Shown here piece by piece: positions 5,656 through 59,324 of a stretch of 64,000 nt of DNA; positions within the stretch are counted from its first letter, which is position 1; each line of letters begins with the position of its first letter. The notes beneath the pieces are model-generated. The model was not told the DNA's origin and did no database searches. It saw only the letters and a list, made by a program, of their open reading frames with translations. The stretch lies in the NCBI GenBank assembly GCA_947624255.1, contig CANQJO010000003.1, forward strand, positions 32,852-96,851, given 5' to 3'. The DNA is from an uncultured Ruminococcus sp. GTDB taxonomy: Bacteria; Bacillota; Clostridia; Oscillospirales; Ruminococcaceae. The translations under genes and the position numbers were made by a program.

Positions 5656-5871
5656 TCTAAAAGTTGAAGCGGCAGAAATGCCTTTCATACAGCGATCCGC
5701 TTGAAAAAATGATATGGGAGGGGAAAATAAAAAGAATGTAAGCGGTATCGTCCCGGCGTATGTGCCTCTCTGAGGCATACGAAAAATCGACCAAAAAGTG
5801 ACTGACACAAATTACATGAAACAGCGGAAATATTCCCAAAGATCTGAAATTGATAAAAGGAGAAAATTACT

Positions 5872-6819
5872 ATGAAAAAATTATTGGCTATGCTTATGGC
5901 TTGCATGACACTCACCTGCGCTTTCGCTTCATGCGGCAAGGACAAGGACGATGACAAGGAGGATACAAAAAATTCTGTATCCGACAGCAAGGACAAGGAT
6001 TCCGACAAAGACAGCGATGAGGACTCCGACAAGGACAGCGACGAGGACTCCGACAAGGATAGTGACAAGGATTCCGACAAGGACAGTGACGAGGATTCCG
6101 ACAAAGACAGTGACAAGGACTCCGACAAAGACAGTGACAAGGATTCCGACAAGGACTCCGACAAGGACAGCGACAAGGATTCCGACAAGAACAGCGACAA
6201 AGACAGCGACAAGAATTCCGATAAGGACGATGATAAGAACAACGATAAGGGCAGCAGCTCGATCGGTTCAAGCAAGCTCTCGGAGAAGGATCTCATCGGT
6301 GAATGGGATATGGATGATGAAGAAATGTCCGGAATGGGCATAAACATGGGCTTTGAGTTTGAAAAAGGCGGCACAGGCTCTATCTACATTGATGCATCCG
6401 AAATATTTGTTTTCAACGGCAAAGATTTTATTGTAATGGGTGATACCGTACCTGCGGACGAATGGTCCTTTGACGGCACAACTCTCACTGCTGATGATTC
6501 CGGCGAGACCGTAAGCTTCAAGAAGACGGAGTCTATAGGCTCAAGCAAATCAGACGGACTGTACTCTCTCTCTGCCGATGCTGCCGAGGAAATGGGTGTG
6601 GGAGATTCAGCACTCATTGAATTCATCGGCGACACAAGCCGTATCATAATGAAAGACGCTATCAGCTACGAGATCAAGGGCGATAAGATCGGGCTTACGG
6701 CTTCTGATATATTCGGCTCGGGCGGTGGAGAAACTTCCGAAATGAGCGTTGAATTCAGCGGCAGCAAGATGACACTCACCGATGAAGACGGCGAATCAAT
6801 GACATTTGTAAGACGGTAA
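5872..6819 (+). CDS. Lipoprotein with DKDS repeat stalk, family member 2
   Basis: RBS aaggag; lipobox FASC; 19 D[KE][DN]S units; IGEW...FDGTTL...DGLYSL domain. Confidence 0.85.
5992..6252 (+). repeat. Coding tandem repeat, 12-bp unit (GAYRAGRAY + Ser codon), 19 units plus 2-3 degenerate ones
   Basis: Units read directly from 5992; Ser codons mostly alternate TCC/AGY, giving a 24-bp super-period. Confidence 0.95.
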
Positions 6820-6827
6820 TTTTAGGG

Positions 6828-6855
6828 CAGCACCGCATAAGGGTGCGGTACTGCT
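6828..6855 (+). terminator. Stem-loop between lipoprotein genes 2 and 3
   Basis: gcag-c-accgca/taaggg/tgcggt-a-ctgc followed by ttt. Confidence 0.5.
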
Positions 6856-6892
6856 TTAAGGCAAATCTGTAATATACAAGGTGGAGATCTGT

Positions 6893-7990
6893 ATGAAAAA
6901 ATTATTGGCTATGCTTACGGCTTGCATGACACTCACCTGCGTTTTTGCATCATGCGGCAAGGATGAGGACGATGACAAGGAGGATACAAAAAATTCCGTA
7001 TCCGACAGCAAGGATAACGACAAGGACAGCGGCAAAGACGAGGAGAAAAGCACTGAGGCAAAGAAGACCGAAGCCGCTTCCAAGGCTGAGGATAAAAAAG
7101 ATGATGATGATGAAAAGGACGAGGATTCACCGCTCAATGCAAAGCCGGATAAAAGCGCCTCTGAAAGCGATATAGTCGGCAAATGGGAGATGAAGGAGAG
7201 CTATTATGAAGGAGAACTGATAACCGATCTGTCAATGGGCTTTGAGTTTTATGACAACGGTATTGTCGGATATTATCAGGATGACGAATATATATCTGCT
7301 GATTGGACATTGTCGGACGGCATTGTCACCTATACCGAAATTGGAGGCGATGCGTTAGAGCTTATCTACTCAGATGATACGCTTATTTCAACTGACGGAG
7401 AATCGTATTTTCTGATTGAAAAGGTTTCATCATTAGATATCGACTACAGCCCTGAAGATGCTTTTGAGGACTACTGGTCAGTATACGGTGATGACAATTT
7501 TGTATTTCTTTTCGATGACGGCAATTTTACATTGTGCGAAACAGATGTAAACGATGATGATTGCTACTTTGATGAGGACGGAAACTTTTACATGGATGAT
7601 AAGCCGACTTCGGATGATTGTGTGTCATTTGACGGTACAAATCTTGTGATAGATCACGAAAGATCCGGTTTGTATTTGAAAATGAAAAGGATCGGCGATA
7701 TCGGTTCCGGTAAATACGATGGAATATATACCCTTATCAGAAACAGTACTGATGATTTTGAAGGTCAAGATGTTGAAATATTGATAATAAACGGCAGATG
7801 CTATGAAGAGGATAAAAATCTCGGAACATACAGCTTTGATAAAGGTGTGCTCACGATCGAACCATCAGGTGACGACACAGGAGAATTAGGATCAGGCATT
7901 ACCCTGAGAGTCGGCTGCACCGATGATGATGAAATATACCTGATAGATGAAGACGGCGAAGAAATCAGATTGGAAAGACAAGACCGGTAA
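6893..7990 (+). CDS. Acidic lipoprotein, family member 3
   Basis: Lipobox FASC; first 122 nt differ from member 2 at only 7 positions; VGKW...FDGTNL...YDGIYTL. Confidence 0.85.
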   Translation: MKKLLAMLTACMTLTCVFASCGKDEDDDKEDTKNSVSDSKDNDKDSGKDEEKSTEAKKTEAASKAEDKKDDDDEKDEDSPLNAKPDKSASESDIVGKWEMKESYYEGELITDLSMGFEFYDNGIVGYYQDDEYISADWTLSDGIVTYTEIGGDALELIYSDDTLISTDGESYFLIEKVSSLDIDYSPEDAFEDYWSVYGDDNFVFLFDDGNFTLCETDVNDDDCYFDEDGNFYMDDKPTSDDCVSFDGTNLVIDHERSGLYLKMKRIGDIGSGKYDGIYTLIRNSTDDFEGQDVEILIINGRCYEEDKNLGTYSFDKGVLTIEPSGDDTGELGSGITLRVGCTDDDEIYLIDEDGEEIRLERQDR

Positions 7991-8027
7991 GGCTTTAATT
8001 ATTATAATATTCAGGGAGAAGATCTAT

Positions 8028-8672
8028 ATGAAAAAGATGGTATCATTTTTAACGGCACTCACACTTATGGCAGGCTTCACTGCCTGCGGAGACAAGGACA
8101 GCGGCGAAAAGAAGGAGAAATCCGACGGCATCGAGGGCTCATGGGGCATGGAATCAGACGATACTGCCGTAACTATGGTCTTTGATGACGGAAAGATCTC
8201 AGCTGCCGTAGTTGTTCCCGATTTGCTTGAATTTGACGGCGACAAGGTTTTGTTCGGCGGTGAGGAGCTCAGCGAGGACGACTATGAATTTGACGGCAAG
8301 AAATTCAGCTGCTCGATGCAAGGTCAGAGCATTCTTGAAATGGAAAAAACAGGTGGCGGAGAAGACAACTACGACGGTGAATACAATATCACCGGAGGTG
8401 TGTTCAGCTCAATACTTTCAAGCGCATTAGGCGCTGAGGAAACTGATGCTGATATGTCACTTGTCGTTGCCGGTGATACAACAACATTCGTATTAAATGA
8501 TATAGCCGACTATGAGGCTAAAGACGGAAAGCTCACTATCTCCGGTGTAATTTCATTTATAAGCGATGCAGCGGACGGTGAAGATGAGGCAACCGTAGAA
8601 TACAAGATCAACGGAGACACACTGACTCTCACGAACGAAGACGGTGAAGAAACAGAACTGACCAGAAAATGA
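8028..8672 (+). CDS. Lipoprotein, family member 4
   Basis: ATG 8028 after gggaga; lipobox FTAC; IEGSW...FDGKKF...YDGEYNI. Confidence 0.82.
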   Translation: MKKMVSFLTALTLMAGFTACGDKDSGEKKEKSDGIEGSWGMESDDTAVTMVFDDGKISAAVVVPDLLEFDGDKVLFGGEELSEDDYEFDGKKFSCSMQGQSILEMEKTGGGEDNYDGEYNITGGVFSSILSSALGAEETDADMSLVVAGDTTTFVLNDIADYEAKDGKLTISGVISFISDAADGEDEATVEYKINGDTLTLTNEDGEETELTRK

Positions 8673-8701
8673 TCTCACCGTGACCATCGGAGGATAATTT
8701 T

Positions 8702-9535
8702 ATGAAACGCTTTATTGCTTTTCTCCTTGCCTGCATGACATTCTCTTGTGTCCTTGCCTCGTGCGGCTCGGCAGACGATGAATATGCAGGAGCATTAAGC
8801 TCCGACAGCGATGATAGAAATGCTCCGGAGGAAGAAAAAACCTCTGAAAAAGATAAATCCTCAGAGAAAGATAAAACCTCCGAGAAAGACACAACCTCTG
8901 AGAAAAACAAAACCACAGAGAAAGACACAACCTCAGAGAGAGACACAACCTCAGAGAGAGACACAACCTCAGAGAAGAATACCACTGCCACGATCACAGA
9001 GCCTGTCACCGAAGAAAAGAAGCCGCTTATGGAAATTCCGTTTAATGCCGGAGATGTTCCGTTTCAATCGGGACATCTCACAGACGATGGCAGCTCCAAA
9101 TGTGTGTATTCCATGTGGTTAGACATTTCACAAAATAAGGACCTTGTCTTCAACGGAGAATTTGTAAAATTCAGATTCAAGGTGAGCCGGAACGCTCCGC
9201 AGGGAGTATATCCCATGGATATTAAGTTTGACGGCTCAGATGTGAACGGTATAAGCTGCAATGATAAGGTGAACACGATCAGCGGAAACATAGGCGTGAA
9301 AACACCCGTGACAGCTCAGGAAAAAATGACCGGATCCACAGTGTATGCCGAAAATGTCACCGCCGAAGCAGGCAGCGAGATCGAATATATCGTCAGCTTT
9401 CAGGATAATCCCGGAATTGCCGCATTTATCATCTATCTGAATTATAATGCGGATATTTTTGAATATCTCGGCTGCGAGCCGGTGGGAGAATTCAAGGAAG
9501 CGGCAAATAAGCTCACCACGGGCAGCATCTCATAA
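8702..9535 (+). CDS. Lipoprotein with T/S/E/K hexapeptide stalk and cohesin-like C-terminal domain (apparently permuted)
   Basis: Lipobox LASC; xTSEKD repeats aa 46-95; cohesin-like motifs FNGEFVKFRFKV..APQGVYP and NVTAEAGSEIEY..NPGIAAF..LNYN. Confidence 0.7.
   Translation: MKRFIAFLLACMTFSCVLASCGSADDEYAGALSSDSDDRNAPEEEKTSEKDKSSEKDKTSEKDTTSEKNKTTEKDTTSERDTTSERDTTSEKNTTATITEPVTEEKKPLMEIPFNAGDVPFQSGHLTDDGSSKCVYSMWLDISQNKDLVFNGEFVKFRFKVSRNAPQGVYPMDIKFDGSDVNGISCNDKVNTISGNIGVKTPVTAQEKMTGSTVYAENVTAEAGSEIEYIVSFQDNPGIAAFIIYLNYNADIFEYLGCEPVGEFKEAANKLTTGSIS
8837..8986 (+). repeat. Coding tandem repeat, 18-bp unit (e.g. acaacctcagagagagac), about 8 units
   Basis: KTSEKD/KSSEKD/TTSERD units in the translation. 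Confidence 0.88.
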
Positions 9536-9560
9536 ATACTTATCAGCAGTCATAATACTG

Positions 9561-9706
9561 AAAAACCGTGAAAAATTTGCGGACAGACCATGCATTTTAC
9601 AAGGAAAAGGAACGAAGCCGTACCGATGTATGCCGAGTCACTTTGACGCAGTAAAAGGTGCGGGACCTTCGCAAAGGTTCCCGGTTTTTAGAGTGAGATC
9701 GGTATA
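9561..9706 (+). repeat. Dispersed structured repeat, long form (copy A)
   Basis: Shares acgaagccgtacc, agtcactttga, agtaaaaggtgc and ttttaga..tga..gatcggta with 24763-24926. Confidence 0.85.
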
Positions 9707-9745
9707 AAATCACGGGAAGCAGGCTTCCTGTCTGGAGGATTTTAA

Positions 9746-24592: not shown

Positions 24593-24621
24593 TTGACAAA
24601 TTCTCTTTTTTGCGGTACAAT
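24593..24621 (+). promoter_or_regulatory. Sigma-A promoter of tRNA-Leu
   Basis: TTGACA-17-TACAAT. Confidence 0.75.
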
Positions 24622-24686: not shown

Positions 24687-24742
24687 TGTTTATGCTTGCT
24701 GATAATTGCCGCTGTGGTGGAATAGGCAGACACAAGGGACTT

Positions 24743-25145
24743 TGATGTTTGCACGCACAGCTTATACCGATTTCTTTCCGAAAGCCGTGCAGGATCTGCG
24801 AACAGACTGTGCCTGTTACAGGGAAAAGTGACGAAGCCGTACCGGGACGTATGTCAAGTCACTTTGATGAAGTAAAAGGTGCAGTATCTTCGTTACGTCG
24901 GATTTTAGAATGAAATCAGATCGGTACGTGCGTCTGCGGCAGATCCGCAGAGAGTGCCCGCAGAGAAATTTGCGGTGCAGAAGTCAGCTAAAACGGTGAA
25001 TGCGCAAACAGAACGCCGTGCTAACCCCATAAGGGTGAGTGTAGAGACTTTACACTGACTGCCTTAGTCCGAAAGGATATGGTAAAGACAAAGTCCGGAC
25101 TACAACATACGATCCCGTATGGCTATGGTGACATAGAGTAGTATG
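24743..25145 (+). ncRNA. Group I self-splicing intron (403 nt) between U34 and A35
   Basis: 5' exon ends in U, intron ends in G. P3 agtcag 24982-87/ctgact 25055-60; P4 acggtg/cgccgt; P6a accc/gggt; P7 gacttt 25046-51/aaagtc 25090-95 with R (GUAGAGACU) and S (AAGACAAAGUCC) elements; P8 with GAAA tetraloop; P9 hairpins. Confidence 0.92.
24763..24926 (+). repeat. Dispersed structured repeat, long form (copy B), inside the intron
   Basis: Bounded by taccgat...atcggta; core homologous to 9561-9706. Confidence 0.85.
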
Positions 25146-25221
25146 AAAATCCCTCGCCGGCGACGGCGTACCGGTTCAAGTCCGGTCAGCGGCACCATTA
25201 CATTGAAAGGAGTTTTTCACC

Positions 25222-25419
25222 ATGGATATCAAGGACAAACTGAGCGATATAACCGACAAGGTAAAAAATGATAAGGATTTCACAAAAAACCTCAAGGAAG
25301 ATCCGGTCAAAGCTGTTGAAAACGTAACCGGTATAGATCTTCCCGATGACAAGATCGACAAGGTAGTTGATACTGCTAAGGACAAGCTCGGCGATATTGC
25401 TGATAAGTTCAAAAAATAA
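25222..25419 (+). CDS. Small hypothetical protein (65 aa)
   Basis: RBS aaggag, amphipathic charged sequence, followed by a terminator. Confidence 0.75.
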   Translation: MDIKDKLSDITDKVKNDKDFTKNLKEDPVKAVENVTGIDLPDDKIDKVVDTAKDKLGDIADKFKK

Positions 25420-32631: not shown

Positions 32632-32647
32632 TGAGATACACCTCCCT

Positions 32648-32711
32648 TATACCGATCTCACTCTAAAATCCGAAAATCTTTGCGAAGATCCTGCACGGTC
32701 CTTATCAGTAT
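32648..32711 (-). repeat. Dispersed structured repeat, short form (copy C)
   Basis: Reverse complement reads atactga..accgtgcaggatcttcgcaaaga..ggattttagagtgagatcggtata. Confidence 0.85.
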
Positions 32712-32732
32712 CGGAATTCCTGACAGGCAGCC

Positions 32733-59084: not shown

Positions 59085-59221
59085 TAAATTATATATGGCA
59101 TTCTCTGAAACCTGTCCGCTCAGGCAAAAATCAGACGGGTGCGGTATATGTGCATAGGTCAGGCTTACTCATGTGTAGAATATATATAACTCAGTTAAGC
59201 TATCGCTCCGAAGTTGAGTTT

Positions 59222-59293
59222 TATACCGGTCTCATTCCGAAAACCGTGCAAGATCTTCGCAAAGACCCTCGTGTTTTAGAGCGAGATCGGTAT
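59222..59293 (+). repeat. Dispersed structured repeat, short form (copy D)
   Basis: tataccggtctcattccgaaaaccgtgcaagatcttcgcaaaga..gttttagagcgagatcggtat; 11-bp terminal inverted repeat. Confidence 0.85.
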
Positions 59294-59324
59294 TATCCCG
59301 AATGCGCAAAAGGAGATAACAGAA

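What the first reader, a model, noticed from the sequence alone, without database searches (positions are those of the whole stretch)
24743..24959. Intron's P1 loop appears to be occupied by a non-coding repeat instead of a homing endonuclease
Seen: the 5' exon end GGG-ACUU finds a plausible guide only about 210 nt downstream (GAGU-G-CCC at 24952-24959, giving the U.G splice-site pair). The intervening segment closes on itself (gcacg/cgtgc, taccgat/atcggta, gatttc/gaaatc) and contains copy B of a dispersed repeat. No ORF was noted. Known: peripheral loops of group I introns usually carry homing endonuclease ORFs, and IStrons fuse introns with IS200/IS605 elements. Inference: this is a chimeric intron-plus-repeat RNA, in which a mobile element shelters in a self-splicing intron inside an essential tRNA gene, or the intron acquired a new structured domain.
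Basis: partly seen in the sequence, partly recalled or inferred. Interest (0 to 1): 0.85.

Follow-up and report, generated by a model that had tools for sequence, protein, structure and literature searches.

The report
Palindromic repeat nested in tRNA-Leu intron
A Ruminococcus tRNA-Leu(UAA) gene is split by a classical self-splicing group I intron, and a 164-base copy of a genome-wide, non-coding palindromic repeat sits in a dispensable hairpin loop next to the 5' splice site; a related bacterium has the same intron without it, so this is one selfish element nested in another, real and tidy but not a new mechanism.

Summary
Window 24708-25197 is a tRNA-Leu(UAA) gene split between U34 and A35 by a 403-nt IC3 group I intron (24743-25145, the "Leu.3Ug" type). 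The guide GAGU (24952-24955) lies 209 nt after the 5' splice site, directly before P2, as in the closest intron relatives.

The segment in between contains two hairpins that those relatives also have. I call them P1.1 and P1.2. The terminal loop of P1.1 carries a 164-nt insert (24763-24926).

The insert is the long form of a dispersed, non-coding, rod-folding palindromic repeat. The window holds four copies, and the source metagenome holds roughly 15-30. I found none in related Ruminococcus loci, and it matches no Rfam family.

A gut-metagenome contig with a 94%-identical intron lacks the insert; its P1.1 is a plain 6-bp stem with an 8-nt loop. More distant relatives lack the insert too, and some carry HNH endonuclease ORFs in the same region.

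The best reading is a MITE/REP-like repeat that landed in a permissive peripheral loop and is tolerated because it folds on itself. Splicing of the filled allele and the way the repeat moves remain untested. This is a new variant of a known kind, of moderate interest.

The parts
24593..24621 (+). Promoter-like site TTGACA-17-TACAAT upstream of the tRNA gene
   Evidence: 11 of 12 consensus positions. This is a consensus match only.
24708..24742 (+). tRNA-Leu(UAA) 5' exon, ending ...GGGACUU (U34)
   Evidence: ARAGORN calls tRNA-Leu(taa) on the joined exons.
24743..25145 (+). Group I intron, subgroup IC3, 'Leu.3Ug' type, 403 nt, ending in omega-G at 25145
   Evidence: blastn gives 80.6% identity over 211 nt to the L029 tRNA-Leu intron, E = 3e-40. 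Relatives L034 and L040 hit Rfam RF00028.
24736..24742 (+). P1 5' strand (exon GGGACUU); U24742 makes the U.G pair with G24952
   Evidence: Read from the sequence; compared with relatives.
24753..24933 (+). Hairpin P1.1 (my label): stem ACGCAC 24753-58 / GUGCGU 24928-33, whose loop holds the insert
   Evidence: In the X5 allele the same stem closes an 8-nt loop, AUCAAUAU. L029 and L120 have a different, compensated stem at the same place.
24763..24926 (+). Copy B of the dispersed palindromic repeat (long form, 164 nt)
   Evidence: It is skipped in the X5 contig. It is present in five independent assemblies, L133-L137.
24934..24950 (+). Hairpin P1.2 (my label): CUGCGG-CAGAU-CCGCAG
   Evidence: Conserved in X5 with a different loop, and compensated in L029 (CGUAGAU/AUCUACG) and L120 (CAUUU/AAAUG).
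24952..24957 (+). Internal guide sequence GAGU (24952-55), followed by G56 and C57
   Evidence: The position directly 5' of P2 is the same in all close relatives.
24958..24975 (+). P2: CCGCAGA-GAAA-UUUGCGG
   Evidence: P2 pairs show compensatory changes on both sides in up to 2 of the 4 sequences, including C24958-G24975 against U-A in L029.
24982..25145 (+). Catalytic core: P3 24982-87/25055-60, P4 24994-98/25014-18, P6, P7 25046-50/25091-95, P8, J8/7, P9 with two hairpins
   Evidence: 75 predicted pairs, 23 of them with compensatory changes. The X5 variants A24986G + U25056C (P3) and U24997C (P4, G.U to G-C) keep pairing, and the loop change GUGA>GUAA stays a GNRA loop.
25146..25197 (+). tRNA-Leu(UAA) 3' exon (AAAAUCCC...GCACCA)
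9553..9707 (+). Repeat copy A (long form), between a cohesin-domain gene and a CNNM/CorC transporter gene
32647..32716 (-). Repeat copy C (short form, 5' arm degenerate), between a Yip1/NHL gene and a DUF5696 gene in one operon
59221..59295 (+). Repeat copy D (short form, complete; inverted ends TTATACCGGTCTC ... GAGATCGGTAT), upstream of an alpha/beta hydrolase gene
   Evidence: Alignments of other copies end sharply at 59220-23 and 59293-97.

Best explanation
A classical IC3 group I intron of the Leu.3Ug type (CUU/...g/AAAA) interrupts the tRNA-Leu(UAA) gene of a rabbit-gut Ruminococcus. In this lineage the P1 loop already held two small hairpins, P1.1 and P1.2, between the 5' splice site and the guide GAGU. 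After this species split from its nearest sampled relative, a copy of a lineage-specific, non-coding palindromic repeat became inserted in the terminal loop of P1.1. The repeat is MITE/REP-like and comes in a ~75-nt short form and a ~160-nt long form. Its two halves are complementary, so the inserted RNA zips into a self-contained rod that extends P1.1. The splice site, guide, P2 and catalytic core keep the same topology as in relatives without the insert. The insertion is therefore probably near-neutral: the intron still splices and removes the repeat along with itself.

Shown: the intron's identity and architecture, the repeat's multi-copy and palindromic nature, the empty-site allele, and the lineage restriction.
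Inferred: that the filled intron still self-splices, that the repeat arrived by transposition or recombination, and that it has no function of its own in the intron.
For: Intron identity:
- The exons join into tRNA-Leu(taa).
- blastn gives 80.6% identity over 211 nt to the L029 tRNA-Leu intron.
- RNAalifold recovers P2, P3, P4, P6, P8 and P9 with 23 compensated pairs.
- Relatives hit Rfam RF00028.
- The type is the classical Leu.3Ug described by Williams 2020 (10.1101/2020.01.27.920355).

Architecture:
- P1, P1.1, P1.2, the guide and P2 are all formable, with different sequences, in the window, X5, L029 and L120.

Insert is a dispersed repeat:
- Four copies lie in the window.
- 14 to 35 contigs of run X1, at genome-like depth, match it with sharp ends, and depth over it is 13-28 times the genome's.
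- About half of those copies are the long form (loose ends).

Empty site:
- The X5 contig is 94% identical and skips 24760-24943, with 23 nt in between that restore a plain P1.1 hairpin.

Lineage restriction:
- No copy was found in X5 at 80% identity or more, in 93 kb of four related Ruminococcus genomes, or by a genome-collection scan with the repeat's conserved 18-mer.

Not regulatory by context:
- The genes downstream of copies A, C and D are unrelated.
- CNNM orthologues carry a different conserved leader.
- No Rfam family matches.

Rod fold.

Permissive site:
- P1 loops of related Leu introns range from 4 nt (L040) to about 450 nt with HNH ORFs (L037, L111, L109).

Persistence and constraint:
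- Four independent assemblies are identical.
- A variant strain (L137) keeps the insert, and one of its two core changes (U24997C in P4) turns a U.G pair into C-G.
Against: - Nothing shows directly that the filled intron splices. No RNA data exist for this organism.
- I could not define a target-site duplication. The loop sequences of the filled and empty alleles differ, AGCU...C against AUCAAUAU.
- No parent IS or transposase with matching ends is in the window.
- All four window copies point the same way as local transcription, and three sit just upstream of a start codon. This would also fit a transcribed, functional RNA element, although n = 4.
- The window's intron is not detected by Rfam RF00028 even at E = 10. 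Its identity rests on homology to relatives and on manual structure assignment.
- The X5 'empty' allele comes from a different species, with about 80% identity in the one protein-coding stretch that aligned. This is not a within-population polymorphism.
Confidence: 0.75

Rival explanations
1. The insert is a functional RNA module that the intron acquired. It could be a ligand- or protein-responsive element or an RNase III target, making maturation of tRNA-Leu(UAA), the decoder of a rare codon, conditional. That would be an allosteric or regulated group I ribozyme.
For: - All four window copies are in sense orientation, and three lie 15-50 nt upstream of an RBS and start codon.
- The insert is kept in every sampled strain of the species.
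- In L137 a G-C to G.U change keeps the inner stem.
- UUA is rare, 22 of 875 Leu codons, so control of this tRNA could be regulatory.
- A riboswitch-controlled group I intron is a known precedent (c-di-GMP-II in C. difficile, reviewed in PMC3984707).
Against: - The element is essentially a long imperfect palindrome, with no conserved internal loops typical of aptamers.
- The downstream genes are functionally unrelated.
- It is absent upstream of CNNM orthologues and from 93 kb of related genomes, and absent from the X5 relative, whose intron is intact without it.
- No Rfam match.
- Copy B is the most degenerate copy in its 3' half (loose-end consensus).
Confidence: 0.07
2. The filled allele is a dead intron in a tRNA pseudogene. 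Another, uninterrupted tRNA-Leu(UAA) gene elsewhere in the genome does the work, so the insertion needed no tolerance.
For: - The genome-wide tRNA complement is unknown; I saw only 64 kb plus about 12 kb.
- UUA and UUG are rare codons, so demand is low.
- Rfam does not detect the intron.
Against: - Exons, guide, P2, all core helices, J8/7 and omega-G are intact.
- A near-consensus promoter precedes the gene.
- The locus is identical in four samples. One of the two core differences in L137 and several of the differences in X5 preserve pairing, which is not expected for a decaying pseudogene.
Confidence: 0.1
3. The insert is the decayed remnant of a homing endonuclease gene that once occupied the P1 loop.
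For: Related Leu introns carry HNH ORFs in exactly this region (L037, L111, L109).
Against: - The insert is about 80% identical to intergenic repeat copies elsewhere.
- It is palindromic.
- None of the five ORFs within or overlapping the intron (listed at 30 aa or more) has a Pfam match.
- The 54-aa ORF's reading frame is not kept between copies.
Confidence: 0.02
4. Assembly artefact: a repeat-induced chimeric join placed the repeat inside the intron.
For: Assemblers do break and mis-join at dispersed repeats, and several Logan contigs end inside this repeat.
Against: Five independent ENA assemblies (L133-L137) and Logan contigs spanning 24713-25196 with 0 differences carry the same junctions on both sides.
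Confidence: 0.01

Closest known systems
[quoted passage not shown]
   Same: - Same insertion site, between U34 and A35 (CUU/...g/AAAA).
- U.G pair at the 5' splice site, omega-G, and the guide GAG(U) directly 5' of a P2 capped by GAAA.
- The IC3 core motifs AGAGACU ... GGUAAAGANAAAGUCC are present.
- It is homologous to more than 25 other tRNA-Leu introns recovered here.
   Different: - The host is a Ruminococcus (Clostridia).
- P5 is reduced to about 15 nt.
- The P1 loop is 209 nt, made of two hairpins plus a nested repeat.
- Rfam RF00028 does not detect it.
IStron (CdISt1 of Clostridioides difficile; Braun et al. 2000, as reviewed in PMC3984707)
   Same: A group I intron physically combined with a second mobile or repetitive DNA element, so that splicing removes both from the host RNA.
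   Different: - An IStron carries an IS605-family element with transposase ORFs at the intron's 3' end, and the whole composite is the mobile unit; its intron is IA2.
- Here the passenger is a 164-nt non-coding palindrome in a 5' peripheral loop of an IC3 intron.
- No transposase is present.
- The other ~15-30 copies of the repeat are not associated with introns.
Bacterial MITEs and palindromic intergenic repeats (Correia elements, ERIC, RUP/BOX, bcr1, Rickettsia palindromic elements) - from my own knowledge
   Same: - Small and non-coding, with terminal inverted repeats.
- Tens of dispersed copies, mostly intergenic and co-transcribed with neighbouring genes.
- Folds as a hairpin, is lineage-specific, and exists as long and short size variants.
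   Different: - There is no sequence relation to any named family.
- Target-site duplication and parent transposase were not found.
- Insertion into a self-splicing intron of a tRNA gene is not a setting I know to be reported for these families.
Homing-endonuclease-bearing tRNA-Leu introns (found here: L037, L111, L109)
   Same: A large insertion upstream of the guide and P2 in the same intron family, showing the P1 loop is a permissive site.
   Different: Those inserts encode 142-165-aa HNH proteins. This one encodes nothing.
Allosteric group I ribozyme with a c-di-GMP-II aptamer (C. difficile; reviewed in PMC3984707)
   Same: A structured non-coding RNA module joined to a group I intron near its 5' splice site.
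   Different: There the aptamer is a conserved ligand-binding fold that controls splice-site choice. Here the module is a genome-wide palindromic repeat with no aptamer features and no conservation outside the species.

Membership tests
Group I intron, IC3, tRNA-Leu(UAA) 'Leu.3Ug' type | Interrupts the anticodon loop between U34 and A35; joined exons give a canonical tRNA-Leu(UAA) | tested here: met
   the joined exons give an 87-nt tRNA-Leu(taa). The loop is CUU|AAAA.
Group I intron, IC3, tRNA-Leu(UAA) 'Leu.3Ug' type | U at -1 forming a U.G wobble in P1 with an internal guide sequence; G at the intron's 3' end (omega-G) | tested here: met
   U24742.G24952 lies within ACUU/GAGU, and G25145 is the last intron base. 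The guide position is conserved in L029, L120 and X5.
Group I intron, IC3, tRNA-Leu(UAA) 'Leu.3Ug' type | Conserved core helices P3-P9 with the P3/P7 pseudoknot and J8/7 | tested here: met
   P2, P3, P4, P6, P8 and P9 are recovered, with 23 compensated pairs. P7 (25046-50/25091-95) and J8/7 (GGUAAAGACA) were assigned by eye, through homology to L029, L120 and L040.
Group I intron, IC3, tRNA-Leu(UAA) 'Leu.3Ug' type | Detection by the Rfam Intron_gpI (RF00028) covariance model (a detection aid, not a defining property) | tested here: not met
   No hit even at E <= 10. Relatives score 79 bits (L034), 44 bits (L040) and 22 bits (L029). Williams 2020 notes that none of the Rfam seed sequences is bacterial.
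Group I intron, IC3, tRNA-Leu(UAA) 'Leu.3Ug' type | Self-splicing activity | not testable with these tools
   No RNA run holds this organism's sequence.
MITE / palindromic dispersed repeat | Short, non-coding, with terminal inverted repeats | tested here: met
   The forms are 75 and ~160 nt. The ends are TTATACCGATCTC / GAGATCGGTATAA. The element folds as a rod, has no Pfam hit, and the frame is not conserved between copies.
MITE / palindromic dispersed repeat | Many dispersed copies in one genome | tested here: met
   Four copies in the window. In run X1, 14-35 contigs match and depth is 13-28 times the genome's.
MITE / palindromic dispersed repeat | Presence/absence between related genomes at a given site | tested here: met
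   The intron site is filled in this species (L133-L137) and empty in the X5 contig, which is 94% identical. Only this one site could be compared.
MITE / palindromic dispersed repeat | Target-site duplication flanking the element | tested here: inconclusive
   The flanks of B (AGCU / C) and D (GAGTTT / TATCC) show no clear direct repeat. The empty-allele loop AUCAAUAU has diverged.
MITE / palindromic dispersed repeat | An autonomous parent element with the same ends and a transposase | not testable with these tools
   None is present in the 64-kb window or in the 12 kb of extensions. The whole genome is not available.
IStron | IS200/IS605-family element with transposase ORF(s) fused to the 3' part of a group I intron | tested here: not met
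   No transposase or any Pfam domain is found in the intron ORFs. The insert lies in the 5' P1 region.
Riboswitch-controlled (allosteric) group I intron | A conserved ligand-binding aptamer, found across species upstream of functionally related genes | tested here: not met
   No Rfam aptamer matches. The downstream genes are unrelated. The element is absent upstream of orthologues and in related genomes.
Homing-endonuclease-containing group I intron | ORF of a LAGLIDADG, GIY-YIG, HNH or His-Cys endonuclease in a peripheral loop | tested here: not met
   One search finds no such domain. Relatives L037, L111 and L039 do carry HNH ORFs.

The most novel reading that the evidence does not exclude
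The nested rod is not a passive passenger. It may make excision of the intron conditional, for instance through RNase III cleavage, a binding protein, or temperature- or ion-dependent folding of the 180-nt P1.1 extension. The supply of tRNA-Leu(UAA), the only decoder of the rare UUA codon (2.5% of Leu codons here), would then be regulated. That would resemble bldA-type control in Streptomyces, but exerted at the level of ribozyme splicing.
Probability: 0.05. Interest if true: 0.8.

Novelty: new variant of a known kind. Interest (0 to 1): 0.4.

Why it matters
This is a clean natural experiment on how much foreign RNA a group I ribozyme tolerates next to its 5' splice site. The same intron exists with a 20-nt hairpin in a related species and with a 181-nt hairpin (24753-24933) here, and in more distant relatives the region upstream of P3 holds an HNH gene of roughly 450-500 nt.

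It also documents three smaller points:
- A previously undescribed, lineage-specific palindromic repeat family exists in a gut Ruminococcus.
- Dispersed repeats can lodge inside structured RNA genes where splicing removes them.
- Standard annotation (ARAGORN default settings, Rfam) misses both the tRNA gene and the intron here, so a tRNA-Leu(UAA) would be reported as absent from this genome.

If the speculative reading were true, it would be a new way to regulate a rare-codon tRNA.

Tried and rejected
- Rfam at gathering and E-value thresholds, on the region and the whole window: no family matched the intron or the repeat.
- Genome-collection scan with the repeat's most conserved 18-mer: 12 hits, all chance matches on inspection.
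- Riboswitch hypothesis. I raised it because copies A, C and D sit just upstream of start codons. I rejected it because the downstream genes are unrelated, CNNM orthologues carry another leader, related genomes have no copies, and the fold is a plain palindromic rod.
- Exact-protein look-ups of neighbouring genes, to find strains with empty sites at A and D: only identical contexts came back, or nothing.
- One protein search (DUF5696) timed out.
- Laying X5 contigs on the loci of copies A, C and D, to find further empty sites: the relative is too diverged or too thinly covered there.
- Extending the window by about 12 kb: no new copies.
- HEG-remnant idea: rejected.
- The resemblance of GUUUUAGAGC in copy D to type II CRISPR repeats: treated as a coincidence of 10 nt.

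Full report
**The locus.** ARAGORN with default settings and Rfam at gathering score find nothing in the window. Joining 24708-24742 to 25146-25197 gives an 87-nt tRNA-Leu(UAA) with an encoded CCA end. The anticodon loop is split as CUU | AAAA, that is, between U34 and A35. The intervening 403 nt (24743-25145) follow a U and end in G. A near-consensus promoter (TTGACA-17-TACAAT, 24593-24621) lies upstream. A 65-aa ORF with an RBS and then a terminator-like hairpin follow the tRNA.

**It is a group I intron of the classical tRNA-Leu type.** By eye, the 3' half carries the IC3 core motifs (GUAGAGACU ... GGUAAAGACAAAGUCC). I used those motifs as a pattern in one metagenome scan.

With introns allowed, ARAGORN finds split tRNA genes in most of them: 30 Thr(UGU), 27 Leu(UAA), and others for Arg, Asn, Phe and Ser. 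This agrees with Williams 2020 (bioRxiv 10.1101/2020.01.27.920355). That study mapped 5,292 such introns in bacterial genomes and names the present type Leu.3Ug, one of the four classical IC3 cases.

The window's intron is 80.6% identical over 211 nt to the Leu intron in L029 (E = 3e-40). It is 77.6% identical over 223 nt to the one in L120, and also matches L040.

Rfam's Intron_gpI scores 79 bits on L034, 44 bits on L040 and 22 bits on L029, but reports nothing for the window even at E <= 10. Membership therefore rests on homology and structure, not on the Rfam model.

RNAalifold was run on the window intron with the insert removed, the reconstructed X5 allele, L029 and L120. It recovers P2, P3, P4, P6, P8, P9 and two P9 hairpins. 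Of 75 predicted pairs, 23 show compensatory changes. P7 (25046-50/25091-95) is a pseudoknot with P3 and was assigned by hand.

**The guide and the P1 region.** It lies 209 nt after the splice site and directly 5' of P2 (CCGCAGA-GAAA-UUUGCGG, 24958-24975).

The three closest relatives have the same order of elements:
- the 5' splice site,
- a short linker ending GUUY,
- hairpin P1.1,
- hairpin P1.2,
- GAGUGCYC,
- P2 with a GAAA loop,
- P3.

Each helix can form in every sequence, although the sequences differ.

One refinement is needed. C24958-G24975 is replaced by U-A in L029, so the last two C of the 'guide' belong to P2. P1 proper is ACUU/GAGU with the U.G wobble, and perhaps one further pair.

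A short P1 beside an intact anticodon stem is the known arrangement for the Anabaena pre-tRNA-Leu intron. I take that from Zaug et al. 1993 on my own knowledge of it; here I saw only its title, in the reference list of PMC3984707.

Across the Leu introns recovered, the P1 loop ranges widely:
- 4 nt in L040;
- one hairpin in L018, L027 and L072;
- two hairpins in this clade;
- about 450 nt with an HNH endonuclease ORF in L037, L111 and L109.

The P1 loop is therefore a permissive site in this intron family.

**The insert.** Within P1.1 (stem ACGCAC 24753-58 / GUGCGU 24928-33), the loop holds 24763-24926. This stretch is 79.5% identical over 112 nt to 9562-9671, and it shares its ends with 32647-32716 (-) and 59221-59295 (+).

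The short form is about 75 nt, as in copy D. It is an almost perfect palindrome with the ends TTATACCGRTCTC ... GAGATCGGTATAA, capped by a CUUCGCAAAG hairpin.

The long form (copies A and B) has about 95 extra nucleotides. These form a further hairpin flanked by a diverged duplication of the GTGCAGGATCTNCG segment.

Copy B together with the P1.1 stem folds as one rod (-58 kcal/mol, z = -2.6).

No gene is present. The only ORF is 54 aa with a TTG start. It has no Pfam match, and a 2-nt indel between copies A and B shifts its frame.

**How many copies, and where.** I laid the Logan contigs of the source metagenome (rabbit gut, runs X1 and X2) on the repeat copies at 80% identity or more.
- Between 14 and 35 contigs matched per query.
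- Almost all had the genome's own depth (~5x) and unrelated flanks.
- Alignments ended sharply at the element's termini.
- Summed depth over the repeat was 13-28 times the flanking depth.
- The loose-end consensus shows that about half the copies are the long form.

I take this as roughly 15-30 copies in the genome.

The organism is a Ruminococcus of the flavefaciens group. Its CNNM/CorC protein is at most 76% identical to database proteins, which their sources name as Ruminococcus flavefaciens or Ruminococcus sp..

Profile searches found no copy in 93 kb from four related Ruminococcus genomes, or in 12 kb flanking the window. A scan of species-representative genomes with the repeat's conserved 18-mer gave only chance hits.

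**The empty site.** Run X5, another gut metagenome, contains a 322-nt contig that matches 24713-24759 and 24944-25196 at about 94% identity. It skips the 184 nt between them and has TCAATATGTGCGTCTGCGGTTAG there instead.

In the reconstruction, P1.1 is ACGCAC-AUCAAUAU-GUGCGU and P1.2 is CUGCGG-UUAGU-CCGCAG. This is the same intron with a plain 20-nt hairpin where the window has a 181-nt one (24753-24933).

Several of the contig's other differences from the window respect the structure:
- A24986G with U25056C is a compensated pair in P3.
- U24997C turns a U.G pair into C-G in P4.
- The loop change GUGA>GUAA stays a GNRA loop.
- Two changes fall in the loop of a P9 hairpin.

The remaining changes fall in J2/3 and P5, or weaken a pair (U25060C leaves an A-C mismatch at the end of P3).

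X5 has no contig matching the repeat anywhere at 80% identity or more. The X5 organism is a different species, about 80% identical in the one protein-coding stretch that aligned. The comparison therefore dates the insertion, and probably the family's expansion, to after that split. It is not a polymorphism within one population.

**Within the species.** Four assemblies from different samples are identical over the whole 737-nt intergenic region. A fifth, L137, keeps the insert but has eight substitutions and one 2-nt deletion clustered in about 30 nt of the long-form hairpin. There are only two changes in the rest of the intron: U24997C in P4, also seen in X5, and C25027A in P6. Several of the clustered changes match the state of other repeat copies, including copy A. 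That suggests gene conversion between copies.

**Weighing a regulatory reading.** Copies A, C and D lie 15-50 nt upstream of an RBS and start codon, in sense orientation, so I considered a riboswitch or leader. Four points count against it:
- The downstream genes are unrelated: a CNNM/CorC transporter, a DUF5696 protein and an alpha/beta hydrolase.
- The CNNM orthologues of related species have a different conserved leader and no repeat.
- The fold is a palindromic rod without conserved internal loops.
- No Rfam family matches.

A function for the rod in the intron cannot be excluded. UUA is a rare codon here, 22 of 875 Leu codons in 19 large ORFs, so control of this tRNA could matter. I put that reading at about 5-7%.

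**Conclusion.** [quoted passage not shown] It most likely persists because it folds on itself and is spliced out with the intron.

It is not an IStron: there is no transposase, and the position and intron subgroup differ. It is not an HEG remnant and not a recognisable aptamer.

Three things remain inferred: that the filled intron splices, how the repeat moves, and whether this is the only tRNA-Leu(UAA) gene. I rate it a new variant of a known kind, with moderate interest.

Noticed in passing
L139:1-176 (ERZ27249148 contig), compared with window 25050-25225: One contig carries the same 65-aa ORF and the last ~26 nt of the tRNA (CGGTTCAAGTCCGGTCAGCGGCACCA) but has unrelated sequence upstream. 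This looks like the junction of an element integrated into the 3' end of the tRNA-Leu gene, or a second partial copy of the gene.
   Followed up: partly
L013-L132 (metagenome contigs): IC3 group I introns split many bacterial tRNA genes. Thirty of the 120 contigs have tRNA-Thr(UGU) with a 215-239-nt intron next to tRNA-Lys and tRNA-Glu; a few of these contigs are labelled as human-gut assemblies. Others split Arg, Asn, Ser, Asp, Glu and Lys tRNAs. Default ARAGORN and Rfam settings miss most of them.
   Followed up: partly
L037, L111, L109 (upstream of P3); L039, L098 and others (after P6, antisense): Long tRNA-Leu introns (680-806 nt) carry 142-175-aa HNH endonuclease ORFs. Some sit in the P1-loop region in either orientation, and some sit antisense in P6.
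   Followed up: partly
L143:9790-9960, L145:9800-9970, L147:8570-8740: CNNM/CorC orthologues in related Ruminococcus have a conserved ~170-nt leader. It holds a mini-ORF (MDGAPDGSN...) and a conserved hairpin (GGCAUGGUCUUCACUAUCGUUUGUGUUAGGCUGUGCC). It has no Rfam match and is absent from the window, where repeat copy A sits instead. It may be an undescribed cis-regulator of a Mg2+/CorC-type transporter.
   Followed up: partly
L137:130-165, compared with window 24838-24873: A variant strain has eight substitutions and a 2-nt deletion clustered inside the insert, against two changes in the rest of the intron. Several of them match other copies of the repeat, which suggests gene conversion among dispersed copies.
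   Followed up: partly
window 24736-24742 and 25091-25096: The exon end GGGACUU resembles the P7 5' strand (GAGACUU). It is therefore complementary to the P7 3' strand AAGUCC, and RNAalifold pairs the two in all four sequences. This could be a competing misfold or a coincidence.
   Followed up: no
window, 19 large ORFs: UUA (22) and UUG (37) are rare among 875 Leu codons, and GlyRS uses neither. The intron-bearing tRNA serves a low-demand codon.
   Followed up: yes
window 25222-25419: A 65-aa, Lys/Asp-rich ORF with a strong RBS starts 24 nt after the tRNA's CCA and ends at a terminator-like hairpin. It has no Pfam match and is identical in 8 contigs. It may be co-transcribed with the pre-tRNA.
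   Followed up: no
window 5850-9000: Long arrays of 12- and 18-nt coding repeats (Asp/Ser/Lys- and Glu/Lys/Thr-rich) lie in consecutive ORFs that end in a cohesin-domain protein. They are probably cellulosome scaffold linkers.
   Followed up: no
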